NCBI GenBank assembly: GCA_021777675.1
Contig: JAJYDG010000001.1
Coordinates: 4,997 to 68,996, forward strand
DNA length: 64,000 nt
Direction of reading: 5' to 3'
From: a bacterium
Lineage (GTDB): Bacteria; Patescibacteriota; Minisyncoccia; Moranbacterales; UBA2206
Position 1 is the stretch's first letter. Each line of letters starts with the position of its first letter. The notes beneath the pieces are model-generated. The model was not told the DNA's origin, ran no database searches, and worked only from the letters and a program-made list of their open reading frames with translations. Of this stretch, positions 1,174 to 8,898 are shown piece by piece. Both the position numbers and the translations under genes were made by a program.

Positions 1174-3126
1174 ATGAAAACAAAAATAATTTTGCTTTTA
1201 GTTTTTGCTTTGCTTCTATTTGCGTTTTTTTTGAAAGAAAAAGTTTTTGCATCGGCTATTCCCATTATTATCAGTGCAATTCAAACAAGCGGAGACACAA
1301 CTGATGATGATTTTATAGAGCTCTATAATGATTCCTGTGAAGATATTGATTTATCAGGCTGGAAAATATTTAGAAAAACCAAGTCATCTACCAAGCAAAT
1401 ATCAATTGGAACACTAAAAAAAATTATTCCGGCTAAGGGATATTTTCTTTGGAAAAATACAACATCCAATACTAATGGAGGTCCTGATTATGCAACAAAA
1501 ACATATTATTTAGCAGATGATTATAGCATCGCTCTTTTTGACAAAACTGAAAAGCAAATAGATTCTATTACTTGGGGCGCCAACCAAAATCCATTTCCAA
1601 ACACAATTGCATATCCAGATAATTTAGATGATTTTGAAGTGCTAAAAAGAAATACCAGCAACAACTTATCTATTAAAAAAAATTATTCTCCAAAAAATTC
1701 ATCTTTTATTGAAACAACTGAAATTGCTTTGTGCCAAAAAAACGAGCCCCCGCAATTGCCAAAAACATATTCCGACAAAATAATTATTAGCGAACTTTTT
1801 CCTGCGCCGTCAAACAATTCCGGAAAAGAAGAATTCATTGAACTTTACAATCCGGATGAAAAAAACAATGATATTTCCGACTGGATTTTGCGCGACTCAT
1901 CAAAAAATGGAAAATATATTTTTCCCAAAAACACAAACATAAAAGCAAGTAACTTTTTTGTCGTCTATAAAAAAGATTTTAAATTCGCCTTGAATAATTC
2001 CGGCGGAGAAAAAGTTTCCCTCTTTGATCCGACAGAAAAAGAAATTGCGCAAGCCGGCTATTCTTCATCTGCCAAAACAGATTATGCCTATGCTTTTGAC
2101 GGATCCACTTGGCATTGGACGCCATATTACACTCCGGGAGAAGAAAATATTTTTGCGGAAATTATTTCCGGAGAAATCAAAAAAGATAAAAAAATTTACT
2201 CGGGCATATATGCAAATTTCGAAGCTGCCTCAGATAAAAAAGCCGAAAAATTCACTTGGGATTTTGGCGACGGACATAAAAGCTATTCAAGAAAAGCCAA
2301 ACACAAATATGAAAAATCCGGCGAATATAAAGCTAGCCTTAAAATTAGCGGAAACGGTGAAGATAACTTAATTGAATTTCAAGTTAAGGTGGAAAAATTC
2401 GGCAAACCAAAGGTGCGCATCATTTCCCTTTTCGCCAATCCTGCGGGAAAAGACACAAAAAACGAATGGCTGGAATTAATCAATAAAACCAATAAAAAAA
2501 TCAATCTCAAAAATTGGTCAATCGCTTCCGGATGGAAAAAACTCTATAACCATCCCGTTCGTGAAGATTTTATTTTAAAGCCCGGAAAAAGCAAAAAATT
2601 AATGAGTGATATCTGCGCTTTCAGTCTGGGAAATGAAAAATCAAAAATAGAATTGCGCTATCCTGATGGAAAAGTGGCGGACAAAATCAAATATAATCGG
2701 GAAAAAGATCCGATTTTGGAAGATGAACTCTATCAAAAAATTGAAAAATCCGGCTGGAGTTGGCACAAAATACAAACCGCAAAAACAACACCATCCGCGA
2801 CAAAAGATCTGCCCGAAGTTTTAAGCGATTCTGTTTCAACGGAAAATAATCCATCTAATATCGAGTTGCCAATAAATGTCCGTTCAACAAAAAATCCGAT
2901 TTGGGAAATCAAACAAAAGCGACAGATAGTATTGCTTTTTGCCAAAACAAAGATTGATCCGGAAAAATTTCTTGCAAAAAATCCGGGACTACTTTTAAAA
3001 ATCGCCATAACCACCCGCTTTTCAAATATTAGCACAAAAGAAAAAAAGACACCCTTATTTTTCTCGCCTTCTTTTTTTTGGAGAACAATCAATGCCCGAT
3101 TAAATCAACTTATTTTAAAATTTTAA
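1174..3126 (+). CDS. secreted lamin-tail-domain (LTD) repeat protein with a PKD domain
   Basis: N-terminal signal peptide; three LTD-like repeats (…SGWKIFRKTKSS…, …DWILRDSSKNGKYIFP…, …NWSIASGWKKLYNHP…) and a PKD-like segment (FTWDFGDGHKS…YEKSGEYKASLKISGNG). Confidence 0.7.
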   Translation: MKTKIILLLVFALLLFAFFLKEKVFASAIPIIISAIQTSGDTTDDDFIELYNDSCEDIDLSGWKIFRKTKSSTKQISIGTLKKIIPAKGYFLWKNTTSNTNGGPDYATKTYYLADDYSIALFDKTEKQIDSITWGANQNPFPNTIAYPDNLDDFEVLKRNTSNNLSIKKNYSPKNSSFIETTEIALCQKNEPPQLPKTYSDKIIISELFPAPSNNSGKEEFIELYNPDEKNNDISDWILRDSSKNGKYIFPKNTNIKASNFFVVYKKDFKFALNNSGGEKVSLFDPTEKEIAQAGYSSSAKTDYAYAFDGSTWHWTPYYTPGEENIFAEIISGEIKKDKKIYSGIYANFEAASDKKAEKFTWDFGDGHKSYSRKAKHKYEKSGEYKASLKISGNGEDNLIEFQVKVEKFGKPKVRIISLFANPAGKDTKNEWLELINKTNKKINLKNWSIASGWKKLYNHPVREDFILKPGKSKKLMSDICAFSLGNEKSKIELRYPDGKVADKIKYNREKDPILEDELYQKIEKSGWSWHKIQTAKTTPSATKDLPEVLSDSVSTENNPSNIELPINVRSTKNPIWEIKQKRQIVLLFAKTKIDPEKFLAKNPGLLLKIAITTRFSNISTKEKKTPLFFSPSFFWRTINARLNQLILKF

Positions 3127-4253: not shown

Positions 4254-4748
4254 ATGAAAATCCTCGGCATTGATCCAGGCACGGCCACAACCGGCTGGGC
4301 AATTATTGAAATTAAAGGCGATAAATTTATCCCCCTAGCCTTTGGACACATTAGCACATCAAAAGATAATAATGATGATGAACGCCTTTTAGAAATTTCC
4401 GACGACTTGGTAAAAATAATCCAAAAACATAATCCAGATGAAGCCGCTATTGAAAGTCTTTTCTTTTTCAAAAACCAAAAAACAGTTATCCAAGTCGCTC
4501 AATCCCGCGGAGCAATCCTCTTGACTTTAAGGCAAAATAATGTTAAAGTGTTTAATTACACACCCCTCCAAGTCAAGCAAGCATTAACCGGCTATGGACG
4601 AGCGGAAAAAAAACAAATGCAACTAATGGTAAAAAATATTTTACATTTAAAATCCTTACCCGAGCCTGATGACGTGGCTGATGCGCTAGCAATCGCTGTG
4701 TGCCACGCCAACAGTCGAATTTTAATTAATTTAAAAAATGCGTCATGA
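4254..4748 (+). CDS. ruvC: crossover junction endodeoxyribonuclease RuvC
   Basis: MKILGIDPGTATTGWAIIE… RuvC N-terminal catalytic motif; 164 aa. Confidence 0.9.
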   Translation: MKILGIDPGTATTGWAIIEIKGDKFIPLAFGHISTSKDNNDDERLLEISDDLVKIIQKHNPDEAAIESLFFFKNQKTVIQVAQSRGAILLTLRQNNVKVFNYTPLQVKQALTGYGRAEKKQMQLMVKNILHLKSLPEPDDVADALAIAVCHANSRILINLKNAS

Positions 4749-5410
4749 ATGAAATTAATTTCAATATCAGTCCTCTCTTGACTTTCTTTCTTAATGAGGG
4801 CGTGCCCTTTGAAACAATCAAATTAATTCTAATGCTTCCAATTATTGCAACATTAATCGCCTTCTTACGCCAAGTGGTTGGAATTAAAGCTTTTGGAATT
4901 TACACGCCATTGCTTGTTACTTTTGCTTTTTTAGCTACTAACGGATTGAGGTATGGAATTGCTATTTTCATCACTATCATCTTAATTGGAATGCTTACGA
5001 GAGTCGCACTTAAATCTTTTCGTCTGCTCTACCTCCCTCGCGTCGCTATCATGCTCACAATCGTCGCTCTTTCCATTCTTATAATGTTAGTTATTGGGGG
5101 CAGTCTTAAAAGAACGGGATTAGCTTCTGTTTCAATTTTCCCTATTCTCATTATGATTACATTGGTAGAGAAATTTATTGCCGTGCAAATTGAAAAAGGC
5201 GACCGCGCCGCCATTCTTTTGGCCGCTGAAACACTAATTATTTCCATTTTGGGATTTTATATTGCCAGCTGGGAAACTCTTGTTCATTTTATCGCTTTTT
5301 ATCCATGGATCATTCTTCTCACCATTCCTCTTAATATTATTTTAGGCAAATGGACGGGACTGCGACTTAGTGAATATTTTCGCTTTGGAGAAATAATAAA
5401 AAGAAAATAG
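4745..5410 (+). CDS. 7-transmembrane membrane protein (7TM_transglut-like module without a transglutaminase domain)
   Basis: 221 aa, seven predicted hydrophobic helices; start overlaps ruvC stop (ATGA); directly precedes a RimK-related ATP-grasp gene, the arrangement described for 7TM_transglut / alpha-L-glutamate-ligase-related gene pairs. Confidence 0.55.
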   Translation: MNEINFNISPLLTFFLNEGVPFETIKLILMLPIIATLIAFLRQVVGIKAFGIYTPLLVTFAFLATNGLRYGIAIFITIILIGMLTRVALKSFRLLYLPRVAIMLTIVALSILIMLVIGGSLKRTGLASVSIFPILIMITLVEKFIAVQIEKGDRAAILLAAETLIISILGFYIASWETLVHFIAFYPWIILLTIPLNIILGKWTGLRLSEYFRFGEIIKRK

Positions 5411-5414
5411 TTTT

Positions 5415-6842
5415 ATGTTTGATTTTTTAAAAAAATTTTCTATTTACCTAAATGCCCGCCGCGATATTCTTGGAATGAACGCTAGAAATTTGAAGTATAT
5501 TCGACCATATAATCGCACAAATGCCAAAAGAATTGCCGATGATAAATTACTCAGTAAACGCATCTTGAAAAAAAACGGAATTGCCGTTCCAAAATTAATC
5601 GGGAAAATTATTTCTCAAGAAAATTTGGATAATTTCAATTGGCAAACACTTCCCGATAGCTTCGTGTTAAAACCAAATAAAGGTTTTGGCGGTGAAGGTA
5701 TTATTGTTGTTTATGGTCGCAAAAAAAACAGTATGGACACATGGATTAAGGCTGATGGGTCATTGATTACGATTGAAGATCTAAAAAACCACGCCAGAAA
5801 CATCATTGATGGATCATATTCCCTGTCCGGCGTTCCCGATATTGCTTTTTTTGAAGAGCGTCTAAAACTTTTAAAACTCTTTAAGCCATACGCCTTTAAA
5901 GGCATTCCTGATATTCGCATTATTGTCTTTAATAAAATGCCTGTTATGGCAATGCTCCGCCTTCCCACAAAAGAATCTCATGGCAAAGCAAATCTCACGC
6001 AAGGAGCAATCGGAGTTGGAATTGATCTTGCGTCAGGAATTACCACTACCGCCGTTATGGGAAAACAAAAAATAATCGAGTATTTGCCGGGCACAAAATT
6101 ACTTCTTTCCGGAATTAAAATTCCCTATTGGACAGATATTCTAACCCTTGCTGTTCGTTCGCAAGAAATTTCGGGCTTAGGTTTTTTGGGTGCGGATATT
6201 GCCATCGACAAAGAATTAGGACCGGTTATTTTGGAATTAAACGCACGCCCGGGACTCGCCATTCAAATTGCCAATCTTGACGGGCTAAAGTGGCGACTAA
6301 AAAAAGCGGCCGGTATTAAAATTAAAACAGTCAAAAAAGGCATTCGTGTCGGCATGGATCTTTTTGGCGGTGAAATTGAAGAAGAATTGGAAGAAATTTC
6401 CGGAAAAAAAGTAATTGGAACAGTGGAAAAAGTGAAATTGATCGGAAAAGATGGCAAGGAAATTGAAGTGGAAGCAAAGATTGATACGGGGGCACATTCA
6501 ACTTCGATTGACACAGAAATTGCCAAAGAATTGGGGTTTGCAGGAGTTATAGAATTTTTTAATTCCTTAGAATTGCCAAAAAACTTTAAACGCGAGGATA
6601 TTAAACAAATCGAGGAGCACCTGCGAAAAAAATATATTCATCAGCATCCCGACCTAGCTGATATCTCCGCCATATATTCATCACATGGTGTTTCAATTAG
6701 ACCGAAAATAATACTTAAGTTGATTTTAAATAATATTGAGCTTGTCACGCAGGTAAACGTGACTGAAAGAAAAGAGTTAGCAAAAGAAATCATTGTTGGT
6801 CGAAAAAACTTAAATAAATTCTTAATTGATGTTTCCAAATAA
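5415..6842 (+). CDS. alpha-L-glutamate-ligase-related ATP-grasp protein fused to a C-terminal retropepsin-like (clan AA, DTGA) aspartic protease domain
   Basis: N-terminus MFDFLKKFSIYLNARRDILGMNARNLKYIRPYNRTNAKRIADDKLLSKRIL…GIAVP…FVLKPNKGFGGEGIIVV matches the RimK-related ligase (TIGR02291 / ATPgrasp_ST type) pattern; C-terminal third contains …KIDTGAHSTSIDTEIAKELG…, a clan AA aspartic protease (RimB / PF05618-like) active-site motif. Confidence 0.7.
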   Translation: MFDFLKKFSIYLNARRDILGMNARNLKYIRPYNRTNAKRIADDKLLSKRILKKNGIAVPKLIGKIISQENLDNFNWQTLPDSFVLKPNKGFGGEGIIVVYGRKKNSMDTWIKADGSLITIEDLKNHARNIIDGSYSLSGVPDIAFFEERLKLLKLFKPYAFKGIPDIRIIVFNKMPVMAMLRLPTKESHGKANLTQGAIGVGIDLASGITTTAVMGKQKIIEYLPGTKLLLSGIKIPYWTDILTLAVRSQEISGLGFLGADIAIDKELGPVILELNARPGLAIQIANLDGLKWRLKKAAGIKIKTVKKGIRVGMDLFGGEIEEELEEISGKKVIGTVEKVKLIGKDGKEIEVEAKIDTGAHSTSIDTEIAKELGFAGVIEFFNSLELPKNFKREDIKQIEEHLRKKYIHQHPDLADISAIYSSHGVSIRPKIILKLILNNIELVTQVNVTERKELAKEIIVGRKNLNKFLIDVSK

Positions 6843-7854
6843 GCATATGTTCACAAAATATTTCATAAAATTATCGACTACAAACATAAAAGACTTAAAG
6901 GGTTCTTCTTTTCAAATACTAAAATATGCCCTAAGTAGAGATATTGAAGTATATAGAGTTTTTTCTGACAAAAGAATTCTCGTCCTAAAAAAAGACTCAA
7001 AGCAAGTTTGGATAGACACCTCTCTCACTTCAAAAACAAATCCCGTAGGTATGAGAATAGCAAGAAATAAACATCTCTCAAAGAAATTTTTAAAAAAACT
7101 GGGGTATCCCGTCGCACCAAGCATAAACATGCAAAGTAATGACGACTGCACTCAAATCAGTAATCAAGCAATATCGGAAATAGGCTTTCCATTAGTGGTT
7201 AAGCCGCTAAGAGCTGCTGAGGGAAAGGGCATTACAACTAACATCAATAATAAAGATCTCCTTTTAAATTCGATTCAATCAGCTTTAAAATTTGATAAAA
7301 AAATAATGATCGAAAAACATATTGCCGGTGATTATTACAGAATAACTTATGTGGCAGATGGTGCCTATGCGGTTACAAAAAATCTTCCGGCATATATTAC
7401 TGGAAATAATTCCAACACCATCAGGGAGCTAATTTCAATAGAAAACATTAACAATAAAGAAAGACGCGGAAGGGGAAAATTAAAAAAAATTAAAATTTCA
7501 GAAAAAACTGAAAGATTTTTAGCATCTGCCGGATATACATTTGATTCAATTCTGCCTAAGAATATTAAAATACCTCTTTGCTTCAGCGGATTTGATGGTG
7601 GAGAATATATAAATGTGACAAAAAAAGCTCACCCGTATTTCATAGAAATAAGCAAACAAATATCTGAAAGCCTAGGCTTGCCAATAGTCGGCATTGATAT
7701 TGTCTCACAAGCTATAAATATTCATCCAAAATTAAACAATGGAGTTATAATTGAAATAAATGGCACATACCCAGATATTCTATTTCACAATAAACCAACT
7801 TACGGGGAGGCCACTAGCCTCATCCCTAATCTTATTGATTACTTGTTTTCTTAA
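6829..7854 (+). CDS. ATP-grasp ligase, cyanophycin-synthetase-like ATP-grasp domain (no Mur-ligase domain)
   Basis: …GFPLVVKPLRAAEGKGITTNINNKDLL…EKHIAGDYYRITYVADGAYAVTKNLPAYITGNNSNTIRELISIENINNKERRG…LGLPIVGIDIVSQ… parallels the CphA N-terminal ATP-grasp region; start ambiguous (ATG 6829 or 6847; ORF track used TTG 6826). Confidence 0.65.
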   Translation: MFPNKHMFTKYFIKLSTTNIKDLKGSSFQILKYALSRDIEVYRVFSDKRILVLKKDSKQVWIDTSLTSKTNPVGMRIARNKHLSKKFLKKLGYPVAPSINMQSNDDCTQISNQAISEIGFPLVVKPLRAAEGKGITTNINNKDLLLNSIQSALKFDKKIMIEKHIAGDYYRITYVADGAYAVTKNLPAYITGNNSNTIRELISIENINNKERRGRGKLKKIKISEKTERFLASAGYTFDSILPKNIKIPLCFSGFDGGEYINVTKKAHPYFIEISKQISESLGLPIVGIDIVSQAINIHPKLNNGVIIEINGTYPDILFHNKPTYGEATSLIPNLIDYLFS

Positions 7855-7879
7855 TTTTTTATTTTTAATCACCATTTCT

Positions 7880-8764
7880 ATGAAACTAAAATTTCTAATC
7901 GTTAGTTCGCGAATCAGCCAGCTCTCGCAAGATTTAATTGACGAAATACTAATAAAAGGGCATACTTTTGCATTTTCCACTACGCAAGATTTTATTTTCG
8001 AAATAGAAAATGGTCATTTTAAAGCAAGCACCCCAAATATTCCCAATCTTTTTGATTTTGATATATATATCCTAAGATCATTTTCCAAAAATATGGCCAA
8101 TTCCAAAATATTTACCGAGGAACTTAGATTAAAAAATAAAATAGTAATCGAAGAGTGTATTTCAGATAATTATATCAATAGTAAATTTGCAGAAGGCGTA
8201 CGCCTTACGCGTAGCGGTCTCAACTATCCGATTTCTTATCAAATTCCCAATATAGAAAATATTGAAAAAATTCCTGATAACATTTTTCCAGCAATAGTTA
8301 AACCAACCAATGGTTCCAGGGGTCGCAATATCTCAATAATTGAAAATAAGAAAGACCTTGCTAATTTTATACAAAAAAATCCCGAGGATCTCTTGGTACA
8401 AGAATATTTACCCATTGAATGGGATATTCGAATTTTTGTTGTTGGCAATAAAGTTTTGGGTGGAATAAAAAGATATGTTTTGGAAGGCGATTGTCGTTCC
8501 AACGCATCTTTAGGATCTCAAACTGAGCCTTTCGAAGTTGCGCCAGAAATTGAAGAAATAGCGCTAAAAGCCACAAAAACATTACACTATTCAGTTGCTG
8601 GCGTCGATCTTGCTTGGGCAAAAAATAAGCAAAATTGGTTTGTAATTGAAGTAAACATATCTCCCCAATGGCACGCATTTAAAGCTATAACCAAAATCAA
8701 TCCGGCTATTCATATTATTCAGCACGCGATTGATTTGTATGTCAAGAAAAACGCTCAGAAATAA
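7880..8764 (+). CDS. RimK-family alpha-L-glutamate ligase (ATP-grasp)
   Basis: ORF track 7760-8764; probable start ATG 7880 (MKLKFLIVSS…); …FPAIVKPTNGSRGRNISIIENKKDL…VQEYLPIEWDIRIFVVGNKVLGGIKRYVLEGDCRSNASLGSQTEPFE…AGVDLAW…FVIEVNISPQW typical RimK ATP-grasp core. Confidence 0.7.
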   Translation: MKLKFLIVSSRISQLSQDLIDEILIKGHTFAFSTTQDFIFEIENGHFKASTPNIPNLFDFDIYILRSFSKNMANSKIFTEELRLKNKIVIEECISDNYINSKFAEGVRLTRSGLNYPISYQIPNIENIEKIPDNIFPAIVKPTNGSRGRNISIIENKKDLANFIQKNPEDLLVQEYLPIEWDIRIFVVGNKVLGGIKRYVLEGDCRSNASLGSQTEPFEVAPEIEEIALKATKTLHYSVAGVDLAWAKNKQNWFVIEVNISPQWHAFKAITKINPAIHIIQHAIDLYVKKNAQK

Positions 8765-8898
8765 ATGCAAAAAATTTTCGCCTAAACAACAAAACTGAGA
8801 TTATTTTTTATATATTATATTTTACCCAGATCCCTATTGATTTTTTCCCGAAATTAGACTAAGCTATAGACACTTCAAGAATAGTTTAATTTTATTTT

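What the first reader, a model, noticed from the sequence alone, without database searches (positions are those of the whole stretch)
5415..6842. Gene fusion of a RimK-related ATP-grasp ligase with a retropepsin-like aspartic protease domain
The single 475-aa ORF contains the N-terminal signature of alpha-L-glutamate-ligase-related proteins and an ATP-grasp core. After residue ~330 comes a separate domain with the D-T/S-G-A aspartic protease motif plus flanking hydrophobic and glycine pattern (…IEVEAKIDTGAHSTSIDTEIAKELGFAGV…). In characterised rimABK-like operons the protease (RimB-type) is a separate polypeptide. A covalent ligase-protease fusion implies coupled add-and-trim or autoprocessing chemistry.
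Basis: partly seen in the sequence, partly recalled or inferred. Interest (0 to 1): 0.7.

Follow-up and report, generated by a model that had tools for sequence, protein, structure and literature searches.

The report
Ligase fused to retropepsin-like protease
A real gene in an uncultured Moranbacteria-type (candidate phyla radiation) genome joins an amino-acid ligase to a retrovirus-style protease next to a seven-helix membrane protein; it is a compact, all-cytoplasmic version of the recently described rloABC system, conserved in more than 80 related species but never studied experimentally.

Summary

It is not a frameshift artefact. Full-length fusions occur in at least 80 species-level genomes, mostly Moraniibacteriota, in fixed synteny: YebC-RuvC-7TM-fusion-[variable ATP-grasp genes]-PBP1a.

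The interpretation needs three corrections:
- The ligase is RloC-like, not RimK.
- The partner is an RloB-like 7TM protein that lacks the periplasmic transglutaminase-like domain.
- A protease-ligase hybrid (RimBK, opposite domain order) was published in 2025, so the fusion idea is not new.

This architecture is uncharacterised. The protease has no signal peptide or cysteines, so it sits in the cytoplasm, unlike secreted RloA. The acidic linker (LFGGEIEEELEEISG) is the best-conserved block of the protein, yet the structure model has no confidence there (pLDDT 28), consistent with disorder.

The most likely function is coupled addition and trimming of an acidic (poly-Glu-like) chain at the membrane protein. 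This is inferred, not shown. Verdict: new variant of a known kind, moderate interest.

The parts
4745..5410 (+). RloB-like 7TM membrane protein (221 aa). It has only the membrane half and lacks the extracytoplasmic inactive-transglutaminase domain.
   Evidence: PF14402 7TM_transglut E 2.1e-33, profile positions 55-246/248. NF052267 RloB E 3.3e-25, but only profile positions 312-507/508. About 7 hydrophobic segments; the N-terminus is acidic and the C-tail carries 5 K/R, which suggests N-out/C-in. The gene lies directly upstream of the fusion in every locus with upstream sequence. The stop is 4 nt before the fusion ATG.
5415..6842 (+). The fusion gene: 475-aa RloC-type ATP-grasp ligase plus retropepsin-like protease.
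5457..6311 (+). ATP-grasp ligase domain (residues 15-299).
   Evidence: TIGR02291 E 2.3e-89; PF14397 E 1.9e-68. The AlphaFold model matches ArgX/LysX/RimK by Foldseek at E about 1e-8. K86, D261, E274 and N276 are among the invariant columns; reading these as the ATP-grasp ATP/Mg-binding residues is my own assignment.
6360..6416 (+). Conserved acidic linker L316-F-G-G-E-I-E-E-E-L-E-E-I-S-G-K-K-V-I334.
   Evidence: It is among the two best-conserved 15-residue blocks of the protein (0.89 mean column identity in 81 sequences, equal to the 166-180 and 271-285 blocks of the ligase core). AlphaFold gives pLDDT 28 for residues 320-334. A stand-alone RloC-like protein (P0193) ends about a dozen residues after the 'LF' motif, with no 'GG' linker or protease domain. 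The linker contains an A7 run at about 6403-6409.
6417..6839 (+). Retropepsin-like (RimB/RloA, PF05618) protease domain (residues 335-475), with a helical insert of about 45 residues (376-420).
   Evidence: It has no cysteine and no signal peptide.
6483..6494 (+). Catalytic motif D357-T-G-A360.
   Evidence: Invariant in 33 and in 81 sequences. It aligns with the DTG of RloA 9g58. K355, R429 and R452 align with the poly-Glu-binding K46, R114 and R137 of RloA.
6826..7854 (+). Second ATP-grasp ligase, related to the ATP-grasp region of cyanophycin synthetase and GshAB. The likely start is the ATG at 6829 or 6847.
   Evidence: TIGR02068 E 1.5e-61, profile positions 156-471/862; for the start codons. 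It belongs to a family found in 25 ORFs of the variable island.
7760..8764 (+). Third ATP-grasp ligase, RimK/MptN/LysX family.
   Evidence: TIGR00768 E 1.8e-39, 135.8 bits against a cut-off of 143.4. PF08443 E 1.1e-32. It belongs to a family found in 40 ORFs of the variable island.

Best explanation
This is a genuine, vertically conserved gene of a Moranbacteria-type (Patescibacteria/CPR) genome. It encodes a bifunctional cytoplasmic enzyme: an RloC-type ATP-grasp amino-acid ligase covalently joined, through a short invariant acidic linker, to a RimB/RloA-type retropepsin-like aspartic endopeptidase. Together with the RloB-like 7TM protein encoded 4 nt upstream, it forms a minimal two-gene version of the three-gene rloABC cassette.

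Proposed mechanism (inferred):
- The ligase docks at the cytoplasmic C-terminal face of the 7TM protein.
- It builds an acidic alpha-linked (poly-Glu-like) chain on a still unknown acceptor, using ATP.
- Two fusion protomers pair their protease domains to form the Asp-Asp active site.
- That protease trims or releases the chain, so that writing and erasing are stoichiometrically and spatially coupled.

Fusing the protease to the ligase suits a monoderm cell, which has no periplasm to retain a secreted RloA. It also guarantees that the ligase is never made without its counteracting protease. This is relevant because in P. aeruginosa the loss of the RloA proteases is harmful only when RloB and RloC are present.

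The downstream ATP-grasp ligases, variable in number and type, probably extend or diversify the same product.

The confidence of 0.6 is a blend: the architecture, family assignment and reality of the fusion are near certain (about 0.95), whereas the poly-Glu add-and-trim mechanism at the 7TM protein is about even odds.
For: Shown here:
- Domain architecture and fold.
- Invariant DTGA, and conserved K355/R429/R452, which align with the RloA residues K46/R114/R137 whose mutation impairs poly-Glu cleavage.
- K86, D261, E274 and N276 are invariant in the ligase domain; their role in ATP/Mg binding is my assignment.
- More than 100 full-length homologue clusters and 80 species genomes carry the fusion.
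- The 7TM gene is always adjacent.
- There is no signal peptide, TM segment or Cys in the fusion. Periplasmic RloA proteins have a signal peptide and a conserved disulfide.
- Rosetta-stone fusions among relatives: 7TM+ATPgrasp_ST (P0249), ATPgrasp_ST+RimB-like+MATCAP carboxypeptidase (P0139, P0129, P0123), and versions with YdjC or a second ATP-grasp added.

From the literature:
- RimK makes poly-alpha-Glu. RimB cleaves runs of at least 6 Glu, binds RimK and stimulates it. The RimBK hybrid is proteolytically active (PMC11957791).
- RloA cleaves runs of at least 8 Glu. Deleting rloB or rloC suppresses the defects of the rloA1-3 deletion (PMC11957051).
Against: - No enzymatic activity of any RloC-type ligase has been shown, so the product (Glu or something else) is inferred.
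- PF14397 is named 'sugar-transfer associated'. Some related loci carry glycosyltransferases, YdjC and GNAT genes, so the acceptor could be a glycan or envelope precursor.
- Both family models score just under their curated cut-offs for this sequence.
- In Pseudomonas the protease acts in the periplasm. A cytoplasmic protease here therefore implies that the site of action, or the logic of the system, differs.
- No gene in the 64-kb window encodes a run of at least 4 Glu or an acidic C-terminal tail, so no candidate substrate was found.
- Dimerisation of the protease domain within the fusion could not be modelled.
Confidence: 0.6

Rival explanations
1. Polyprotein-like autoprocessing. The invariant acidic linker is a cleavage site for the protein's own protease domain, as retroviral proteases excise themselves. 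Mature ligase and protease are released as separate proteins, possibly leaving a Glu-rich C-terminus on the ligase.
For: The linker is among the two best-conserved blocks yet is modelled with very low confidence, consistent with an exposed segment. It is Glu-rich, and the family cleaves Glu-rich sequences internally as well as at C-termini. A stand-alone RloC-like protein (P0193) ends about a dozen residues after the point where the linker begins.
Against: The longest Glu run in the linker is 3 (EIEEELEE), whereas RimB needs at least 6 (5 in one context) and RloA at least 8 contiguous Glu, and interruptions strongly reduce cleavage. In the triple-fusion relatives the linker is basic or mixed (GGRFKKREEDISRK, P0139), yet the fusion persists. 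No split genes at this point were seen among close relatives.
Confidence: 0.15
2. The acidic linker is a non-cleaved pseudo-substrate or tether that occupies the basic substrate groove of the protease (or the acceptor site of the ligase). It would gate activity until the real substrate or the 7TM partner displaces it. The protease domain would also serve as an allosteric activator and dimerisation module for the ligase, as RimB does for RimK.
For: Linker conservation exceeds that of the protease domain (0.86 against 0.59). The basic groove residues are conserved. The Glu pattern is too interrupted for efficient cleavage. RimB stimulates RimK independently of its trimming of RpsF.
Against: This is purely inferential: the monomer model gives no confident position for the linker. 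The acidic linker is specific to this clade and is not a general feature of ligase-protease fusions.
Confidence: 0.2
3. The ligase does not make poly-Glu. It instead aminoacylates a sugar or cell-envelope precursor (a 'sugar-transfer associated' ATP-grasp). The cassette would belong to a variable envelope-polymer island next to PBP1a, and the protease would process a different, protein substrate.
For: The PF14397 family name. Glycosyltransferase (GT1, GT2), YdjC and GNAT genes occur in the variable island of some relatives. Adjacency to PBP1a is conserved. The Pseudomonas rlo phenotypes concern cell shape, osmotic tolerance and antibiotic sensitivity.
Against: The closest curated family is 'alpha-L-glutamate ligase-like'. 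The groove residues of the protease match those that bind poly-Glu. Recurrent fusion or linkage with peptidases, including MATCAP-type carboxypeptidases, points to a peptide product. PBP1a adjacency may be simple synteny within one lineage.
Confidence: 0.2
4. Sequencing or assembly artefact: a frameshift (for example in the A7 run of the linker) has joined two separate genes.
For: An A7 homopolymer lies in the junction.
Against: The same continuous architecture, with a nearly invariant junction peptide, is seen in more than 100 protein clusters from many assemblies and in 80 species-representative genomes.
Confidence: 0.01

Closest known systems
rloABC operon of Pseudomonas aeruginosa/fluorescens (Lormand et al. 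2025, PMC11957051; structures 9g58, 9g59)
   Same: It has the same three modules: an RloC-type ATP-grasp (TIGR02291/PF14397), an RloB-type 7TM membrane domain (PF14402, NF052267) and an RloA-type retropepsin-like protease (PF05618). The protease keeps the DTG motif and the basic residues that bind poly-Glu. The genes are adjacent and co-oriented.
   Different: Here the protease is fused to the C-terminus of the ligase. It has no signal peptide and no disulfide cysteines, so it must be cytoplasmic, whereas RloA is secreted. The 7TM protein lacks the roughly 310-residue periplasmic inactive-transglutaminase part. The protease carries a helical insert of about 45 residues. Extra ATP-grasp ligases follow. 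The host is a monoderm CPR bacterium rather than a gammaproteobacterium.
RimBK hybrid and the RimB/RimK pair (Little et al. 2025, PMC11957791)
   Same: A covalent or physical union of a retropepsin-like poly-Glu endopeptidase with an ATP-grasp alpha-L-glutamate-ligase-type enzyme, both in the cytoplasm. This is the add-and-trim logic.
   Different: The domain order is opposite (RimB is N-terminal in RimBK). The ligase family is different (RimK, TIGR00768, against RloC-type here), so this is probably an independent fusion event. RimBK has no 7TM partner. The RimK target is ribosomal protein S6; no target is known here.
Lpg0085/DUF785 (PDB 2pma) and retroviral, Ddi1 and ApRick retropepsins
   Different: Those are stand-alone proteins or parts of other polyproteins. 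Sequence identity is only 16-30%, and they lack the helical insert.
ATPgrasp_ST + RimB-like + MATCAP triple fusions in other CPR genomes
   Same: The same ligase-protease core, the same YebC-RuvC-7TM upstream synteny, and further ATP-grasp genes downstream.
   Different: They carry an additional C-terminal MATCAP/DUF1704-type metallocarboxypeptidase domain. Their linker is not acidic. The 7TM partner has an N-terminal PKD domain.

Membership tests
RloC / TIGR02291 alpha-L-glutamate ligase-like ATP-grasp (PF14397) | Score at or above the curated family cut-offs | tested here: inconclusive
   PF14397 scores 231.1 bits against a cut-off of 31.4, which is met. TIGR02291 scores 299.5 bits against a cut-off of 314.2, a near miss; the match covers profile positions 9-290 of 317 because the C-terminal tail is replaced by the linker and protease.
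RloC / TIGR02291 alpha-L-glutamate ligase-like ATP-grasp (PF14397) | ATP-grasp fold with conserved ATP/Mg-binding residues | tested here: met
   The AlphaFold model matches ArgX/LysX/RimK. K86, D261, E274 and N276 are invariant in 33 sequences; their assignment as ATP/Mg ligands is mine.
RloC / TIGR02291 alpha-L-glutamate ligase-like ATP-grasp (PF14397) | Alpha-L-glutamate ligase activity | not testable with these tools
   No biochemical data exist, even for Pseudomonas RloC (PMC11957051).
RimB/RloA retropepsin-like peptidase (PF05618) | Pfam gathering score | tested here: inconclusive
   26.4 bits against a cut-off of 27 for this sequence. Most homologues carry a precomputed PF05618 hit. The C-domain profile matches RloA 9g58 at E 3.1e-8.
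RimB/RloA retropepsin-like peptidase (PF05618) | Catalytic D-T/S-G motif on a retropepsin fold | tested here: met
RimB/RloA retropepsin-like peptidase (PF05618) | Basic groove residues that bind poly-Glu (RloA K46, R114, R137) | tested here: met
   K355 (90%), R429 and R452 (invariant) align with them. The numbering offset to RloA of P. aeruginosa is inferred from the 9g58 chain.
RimB/RloA retropepsin-like peptidase (PF05618) | Homodimer forming the Asp dyad | not testable with these tools
   Only monomer prediction was available.
RloA (secreted subgroup) | N-terminal signal peptide and conserved disulfide | tested here: not met
   The domain is internal to a cytoplasmic protein. There is no hydrophobic leader and no Cys in residues 335-475 (feature described). 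NCBIfam RloA1-3 models score 18-23 bits against cut-offs of 210-280.
rloABC operon | [quoted passage not shown] | tested here: not met
   Only the 7TM half is present. NF052267 scores 88.8 bits against a cut-off of 900, covering profile positions 312-507/508. There is no PF14400-type hit even at E<=10.
RimBK hybrid | N-terminal RimB domain followed by a RimK-family ligase | tested here: not met
   The order is reversed. TIGR00768 scores 51.9 bits against a cut-off of 143.4. RimBK is described.

The most novel reading that the evidence does not exclude
The cassette could be a membrane-tethered, cytoplasmic writer/eraser machine for non-ribosomal peptide tails, specific to CPR bacteria. The parts would be a 7TM protein, a ligase-protease fusion, a variable array of ATP-grasp ligases, and in sister lineages a MATCAP-type carboxypeptidase fused in. 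This would be a prokaryotic counterpart of the tubulin TTL/TTLL-MATCAP code. The invariant acidic linker would be a built-in pseudo-substrate or self-cleavage switch that gates the protease. The rapidly swapping C-terminal half of the protease domain would tune specificity to the ligase set.
Probability: 0.15. Interest if true: 0.7.

Novelty: new variant of a known kind. Interest (0 to 1): 0.45.

Why it matters
The biochemical product and substrate of the rloABC system are unknown, although the system affects osmotic tolerance, antibiotic susceptibility, biofilm formation and cell shape in P. aeruginosa.

The natural fusions documented here are Rosetta-stone evidence that the three Rlo modules act together, physically, on one peptide-like product:
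- ligase plus protease
- 7TM plus ligase
- ligase plus protease plus carboxypeptidase

They also show that the protease can work on the cytoplasmic side. This constrains models of where the chain is made and trimmed.

The CPR fusion is a single soluble polypeptide. Ligation, trimming and a possible linker-based regulation could therefore be tested together in vitro.

The cassette is also a conserved, unexplained locus in the reduced genomes of Moranbacteria, sitting next to the cell-wall synthase PBP1a.

Tried and rejected
- **Frameshift or assembly artefact.** Rejected on conservation of the continuous ORF and junction peptide.
Not found at E<=1. Only TIGR03698 clan AA appeared, weakly.
- **RimK membership of the N-domain.** Rejected.
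- **Genome-encoded poly-Glu or acidic-tail substrates in the window.** None found.
- **Co-variation of the protease C-end with downstream ligases.** I tested whether the variable C-terminal part of the protease domain co-varies with the type of the first downstream ATP-grasp gene. There was no clear association in 81 sequences.
- **Single-sequence search of the C-domain against PDB.** Only marginal (E 0.013), so I replaced it with a profile search.
- **Foldseek of the full-length model.** It returned only ATP-grasp hits, so the C-domain was modelled separately.
- **The afdb50 fold library.** Unavailable.
- **Iyer et al. 2009.** From memory, this paper first predicted the ATP-grasp/7TM/protease cassette. 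It is not held in the library, so it is not used as evidence.
- **Literature searches.** Searches for Pfam accessions, 'Patescibacteria + RimK' and MATCAP/ATP-grasp/DUF1704 found no description of this fusion.
- **Rfam scan of the window.** Only four tRNAs.

Full report
**1. The observation**

The ORF 5415..6842 on the + strand (ATG start, 475 aa) is present and translates without stops.

Pfam places PF14397 ATPgrasp_ST on residues 24-297 (E 1.9e-68) and PF05618 (the RimB/RloA family, still labelled 'Zn_protease') on residues 333-473. The PF05618 match has E 7.1e-6 and 26.4 bits against a gathering score of 27. NCBIfam gives TIGR02291 'alpha-L-glutamate ligase-like protein' on residues 15-299 (E 2.3e-89, 299.5 bits against a cut-off of 314.2). 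It also gives weak RloA3/RloA1/RloA2 hits on 329-474.

Because the single-sequence protease match is marginal, I tested it in three further ways:
- An AlphaFold model of the domain alone (pLDDT 85) finds 2pma, HIV-1 protease, RloA and Ddi1 by Foldseek.

D357-T-G-A360 is invariant. The full-length model (pLDDT 79) shows two confidently modelled domains. They are separated by a segment with no confidence, residues 320-334 at pLDDT 28. The N-domain matches ArgX/LysX/RimK.

**2. Not an artefact**

The protein search returned 120 listed clusters at 66-95% identity. All are 450-520 aa and cover 96-100% of the query, and they come from ENA, JGI, NCBI and Logan assemblies.

A scan of species-representative genomes found 430 relatives. 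The best 80 all encode the full-length fusion and are mostly labelled Candidatus Moraniibacteriota. The junction peptide is almost identical in all of them.

The junction DNA contains an A7 run. The frame is open, and the downstream domain is in the same frame as in every homologue. Read-level support could not be examined.

**3. What surrounds it**

Immediately upstream, with a 4-nt gap, lies a 221-aa protein at 4745-5410. It matches PF14402 '7TM_transglut' (E 2.1e-33). It also matches the C-terminal 312-507 of the 508-position RloB model. No transglutaminase-like N-domain is detectable. It has about seven hydrophobic segments, an acidic N-terminus and a basic C-tail, which suggests an N-out/C-in topology.

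Downstream lie two more ATP-grasp ligases:
- 6826/6847-7854 resembles the ATP-grasp region of cyanophycin synthetase and GshAB (E 1.5e-61).
- 7760-8764 belongs to the RimK/MptN/LysX family (135.8 bits against a cut-off of 143.4).

PBP1a follows.

Across the 80 loci the order is YebC-RuvC-7TM-fusion-[0-5 variable genes]-PBP1a, with DnaN on the opposite strand beyond PBP1a. The variable genes are three families of ATP-grasp ligases (46, 40 and 25 ORFs), a MATCAP/DUF1704-type metallopeptidase (10), GT1 and GT2 glycosyltransferases, YdjC and GNAT.

**4. Related architectures**

A search of all cluster representatives (1805 hits at E<=1e-3) shows several forms besides the fusions of about 470 aa:
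- proteins of about 790 aa with ATPgrasp_ST + RimB-like + MATCAP
- forms with an added YdjC or a second ATP-grasp
- a 7TM_transglut + ATPgrasp_ST fusion
- stand-alone ligases of about 315 aa

One triple fusion (EKD49309.1) sits in the same YebC-RuvC context. It lies behind a PKD+7TM protein and ahead of three ATP-grasp genes and a further MATCAP gene. A stand-alone ligase sits next to a MATCAP gene. The 7TM+ligase fusion lies on a contig that looks archaeal, followed by a Transglut_core gene.

These fusions indicate that the 7TM protein, the ligase and the peptidases act together. They also indicate that the ligase sits at the cytoplasmic C-terminus of the 7TM protein.

**5. What is known**

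Lormand et al. 2025 (PMC11957051) defined rloABC in Pseudomonas:
- RloA is a secreted, disulfide-stabilised retropepsin-like homodimer that cleaves runs of at least 8 Glu.
- RloC is a cytoplasmic ATP-grasp protein.
- Loss of all three RloA paralogues causes osmotic, antibiotic, biofilm and shape defects. Deleting rloB or rloC suppresses them.
- The substrate is unknown.

Little et al. [quoted passage not shown] - RimB binds RimK and stimulates it.
- A natural RimB-RimK hybrid (RimBK, protease N-terminal) exists in 12% of rim-bearing genomes and is proteolytically active.

A ligase-protease fusion is therefore not a new idea. This one has the opposite domain order, an RloC-type ligase and a 7TM partner, and I found it described in no paper.

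**6. Features that bear on mechanism**

- The RloA residues that contact poly-Glu and are needed for activity (K46, R114, R137) align with K355, R429 and R452. These are 90-100% conserved.
- The fusion has no signal peptide or TM segment, and the protease domain has no cysteine. Protease and ligase therefore share the cytoplasm, as RimB and RimK do and unlike RloA.
- The linker L316-FGGEIEEELEEISGKKVI-334 is among the two best-conserved 15-residue blocks of the protein. Its mean column identity is 0.89, equal to two blocks of the ligase core. Over residues 316-334 the value is 0.86, against 0.80 for the ligase domain and 0.59 for the protease domain. AlphaFold nevertheless gives it no confident structure.
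- The longest Glu run in the linker is three, below the published cleavage thresholds.
- In the triple-fusion lineage the linker is not acidic. A stand-alone relative (P0193) ends about a dozen residues after the 'LF' motif that precedes the linker.
- No ORF in the window encodes a run of at least 4 Glu or an acidic tail.

**7. Best explanation and rivals**

The gene encodes a bifunctional cytoplasmic enzyme of a minimal rlo-like cassette. I infer the following:
- The ligase builds an acidic, poly-Glu-like chain at the cytoplasmic face of the 7TM protein.
- The protease domains of two protomers dimerise and trim or release that chain.

The fusion secures 1:1 expression and proximity. It suits a monoderm cell with no periplasm to hold a secreted RloA. 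It also ensures that the ligase is never present without its antagonist, in line with the Pseudomonas suppressor genetics.

Rivals:
- self-cleavage at the linker (about 0.15)
- the linker as an uncleaved pseudo-substrate or gate, with the protease domain acting as an activating dimerisation module (about 0.2; compatible with the main model)
- a glycan or envelope acceptor rather than a poly-Glu product (about 0.2)
- artefact (about 0.01)

**8. Verdict**

The locus is a new, uncharacterised variant of a recently described kind of system. It is widespread in CPR bacteria and already present in databases under generic names.

Interest is moderate. Its value lies in the constraints that the natural fusions place on the unsolved RloABC mechanism, and in the unexplained invariant acidic linker.

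Noticed in passing
window 6843-8898, and the equivalent stretch of L001-L080: Between the fusion gene and PBP1a lies a variable island of 0-5 co-oriented genes. It holds three different ATP-grasp ligase families (46, 40 and 25 ORFs), a MATCAP/DUF1704-type metallopeptidase (10), GT1, GT2, YdjC and GNAT. The window carries one cyanophycin-synthetase-like and one RimK-family ligase.
   Followed up: partly
P0139/L081:3474-5876; P0129; P0123: Relatives of about 790-916 aa combine ATPgrasp_ST, a RimB-like protease and a MATCAP carboxypeptidase in one polypeptide. In L081 the upstream 7TM protein carries PKD domains, and three ATP-grasp genes and a further MATCAP gene follow. No paper linking MATCAP/DUF1704 with ATP-grasp was found.
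   Followed up: partly
P0249 / L083:6001-7731: A 7TM_transglut + ATPgrasp_ST fusion (576 aa) lies on a contig with archaeal-type genes (PTH2, TruD, intein-containing DUF87). It is followed by a separate Transglut_core gene.
   Followed up: no
window 6540-6839 (residues 376-475 of the fusion): Evolution within the gene is mosaic. The closest N-domain relatives (for example P0005, 95% identical over residues 20-315) have a very different protease insert and C-end (27% and 44%). More distant ones (P0008, 77%) have the most similar (84% and 71%). Pairwise distances of the two parts correlate only weakly (Spearman 0.17). This suggests recombination or fast divergence inside the protease domain.
   Followed up: partly
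window 6402-6410: An A7 homopolymer (gga aaa aaa gta) lies in the linker, encoding the conserved K/R-K/R pair. It is a plausible slippage-prone site, but the frame is intact here.
   Followed up: no
window 1174-3126: A 650-aa ORF has three lamin-tail domains and a PKD domain. It is probably a surface protein and is unrelated to the finding.
   Followed up: no
L003, L007, L009, L015, L044 and other loci: Many genome records with the same Moranbacteria-type synteny and 60-70% identical fusion genes are titled 'uncultured Bdellovibrionales', 'Bathyarchaeia archaeon', 'Fimivivens sp.' or 'Micavibrio'. These are probably taxonomic mislabels in the public MAG records.
   Followed up: no
P0003, P0054, P0031, P0101 (alignment A1, columns 112-158): Some homologues carry a low-complexity insertion of 15-47 residues in the ATP-grasp domain, right after the conserved 'YG+KK' motif. 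The window protein has none.
   Followed up: no
window 7760-7854: As listed, the third ATP-grasp ORF overlaps the second by 95 nt. The RimK-family match starts only at residue 45, so the true start is probably further downstream.
   Followed up: no
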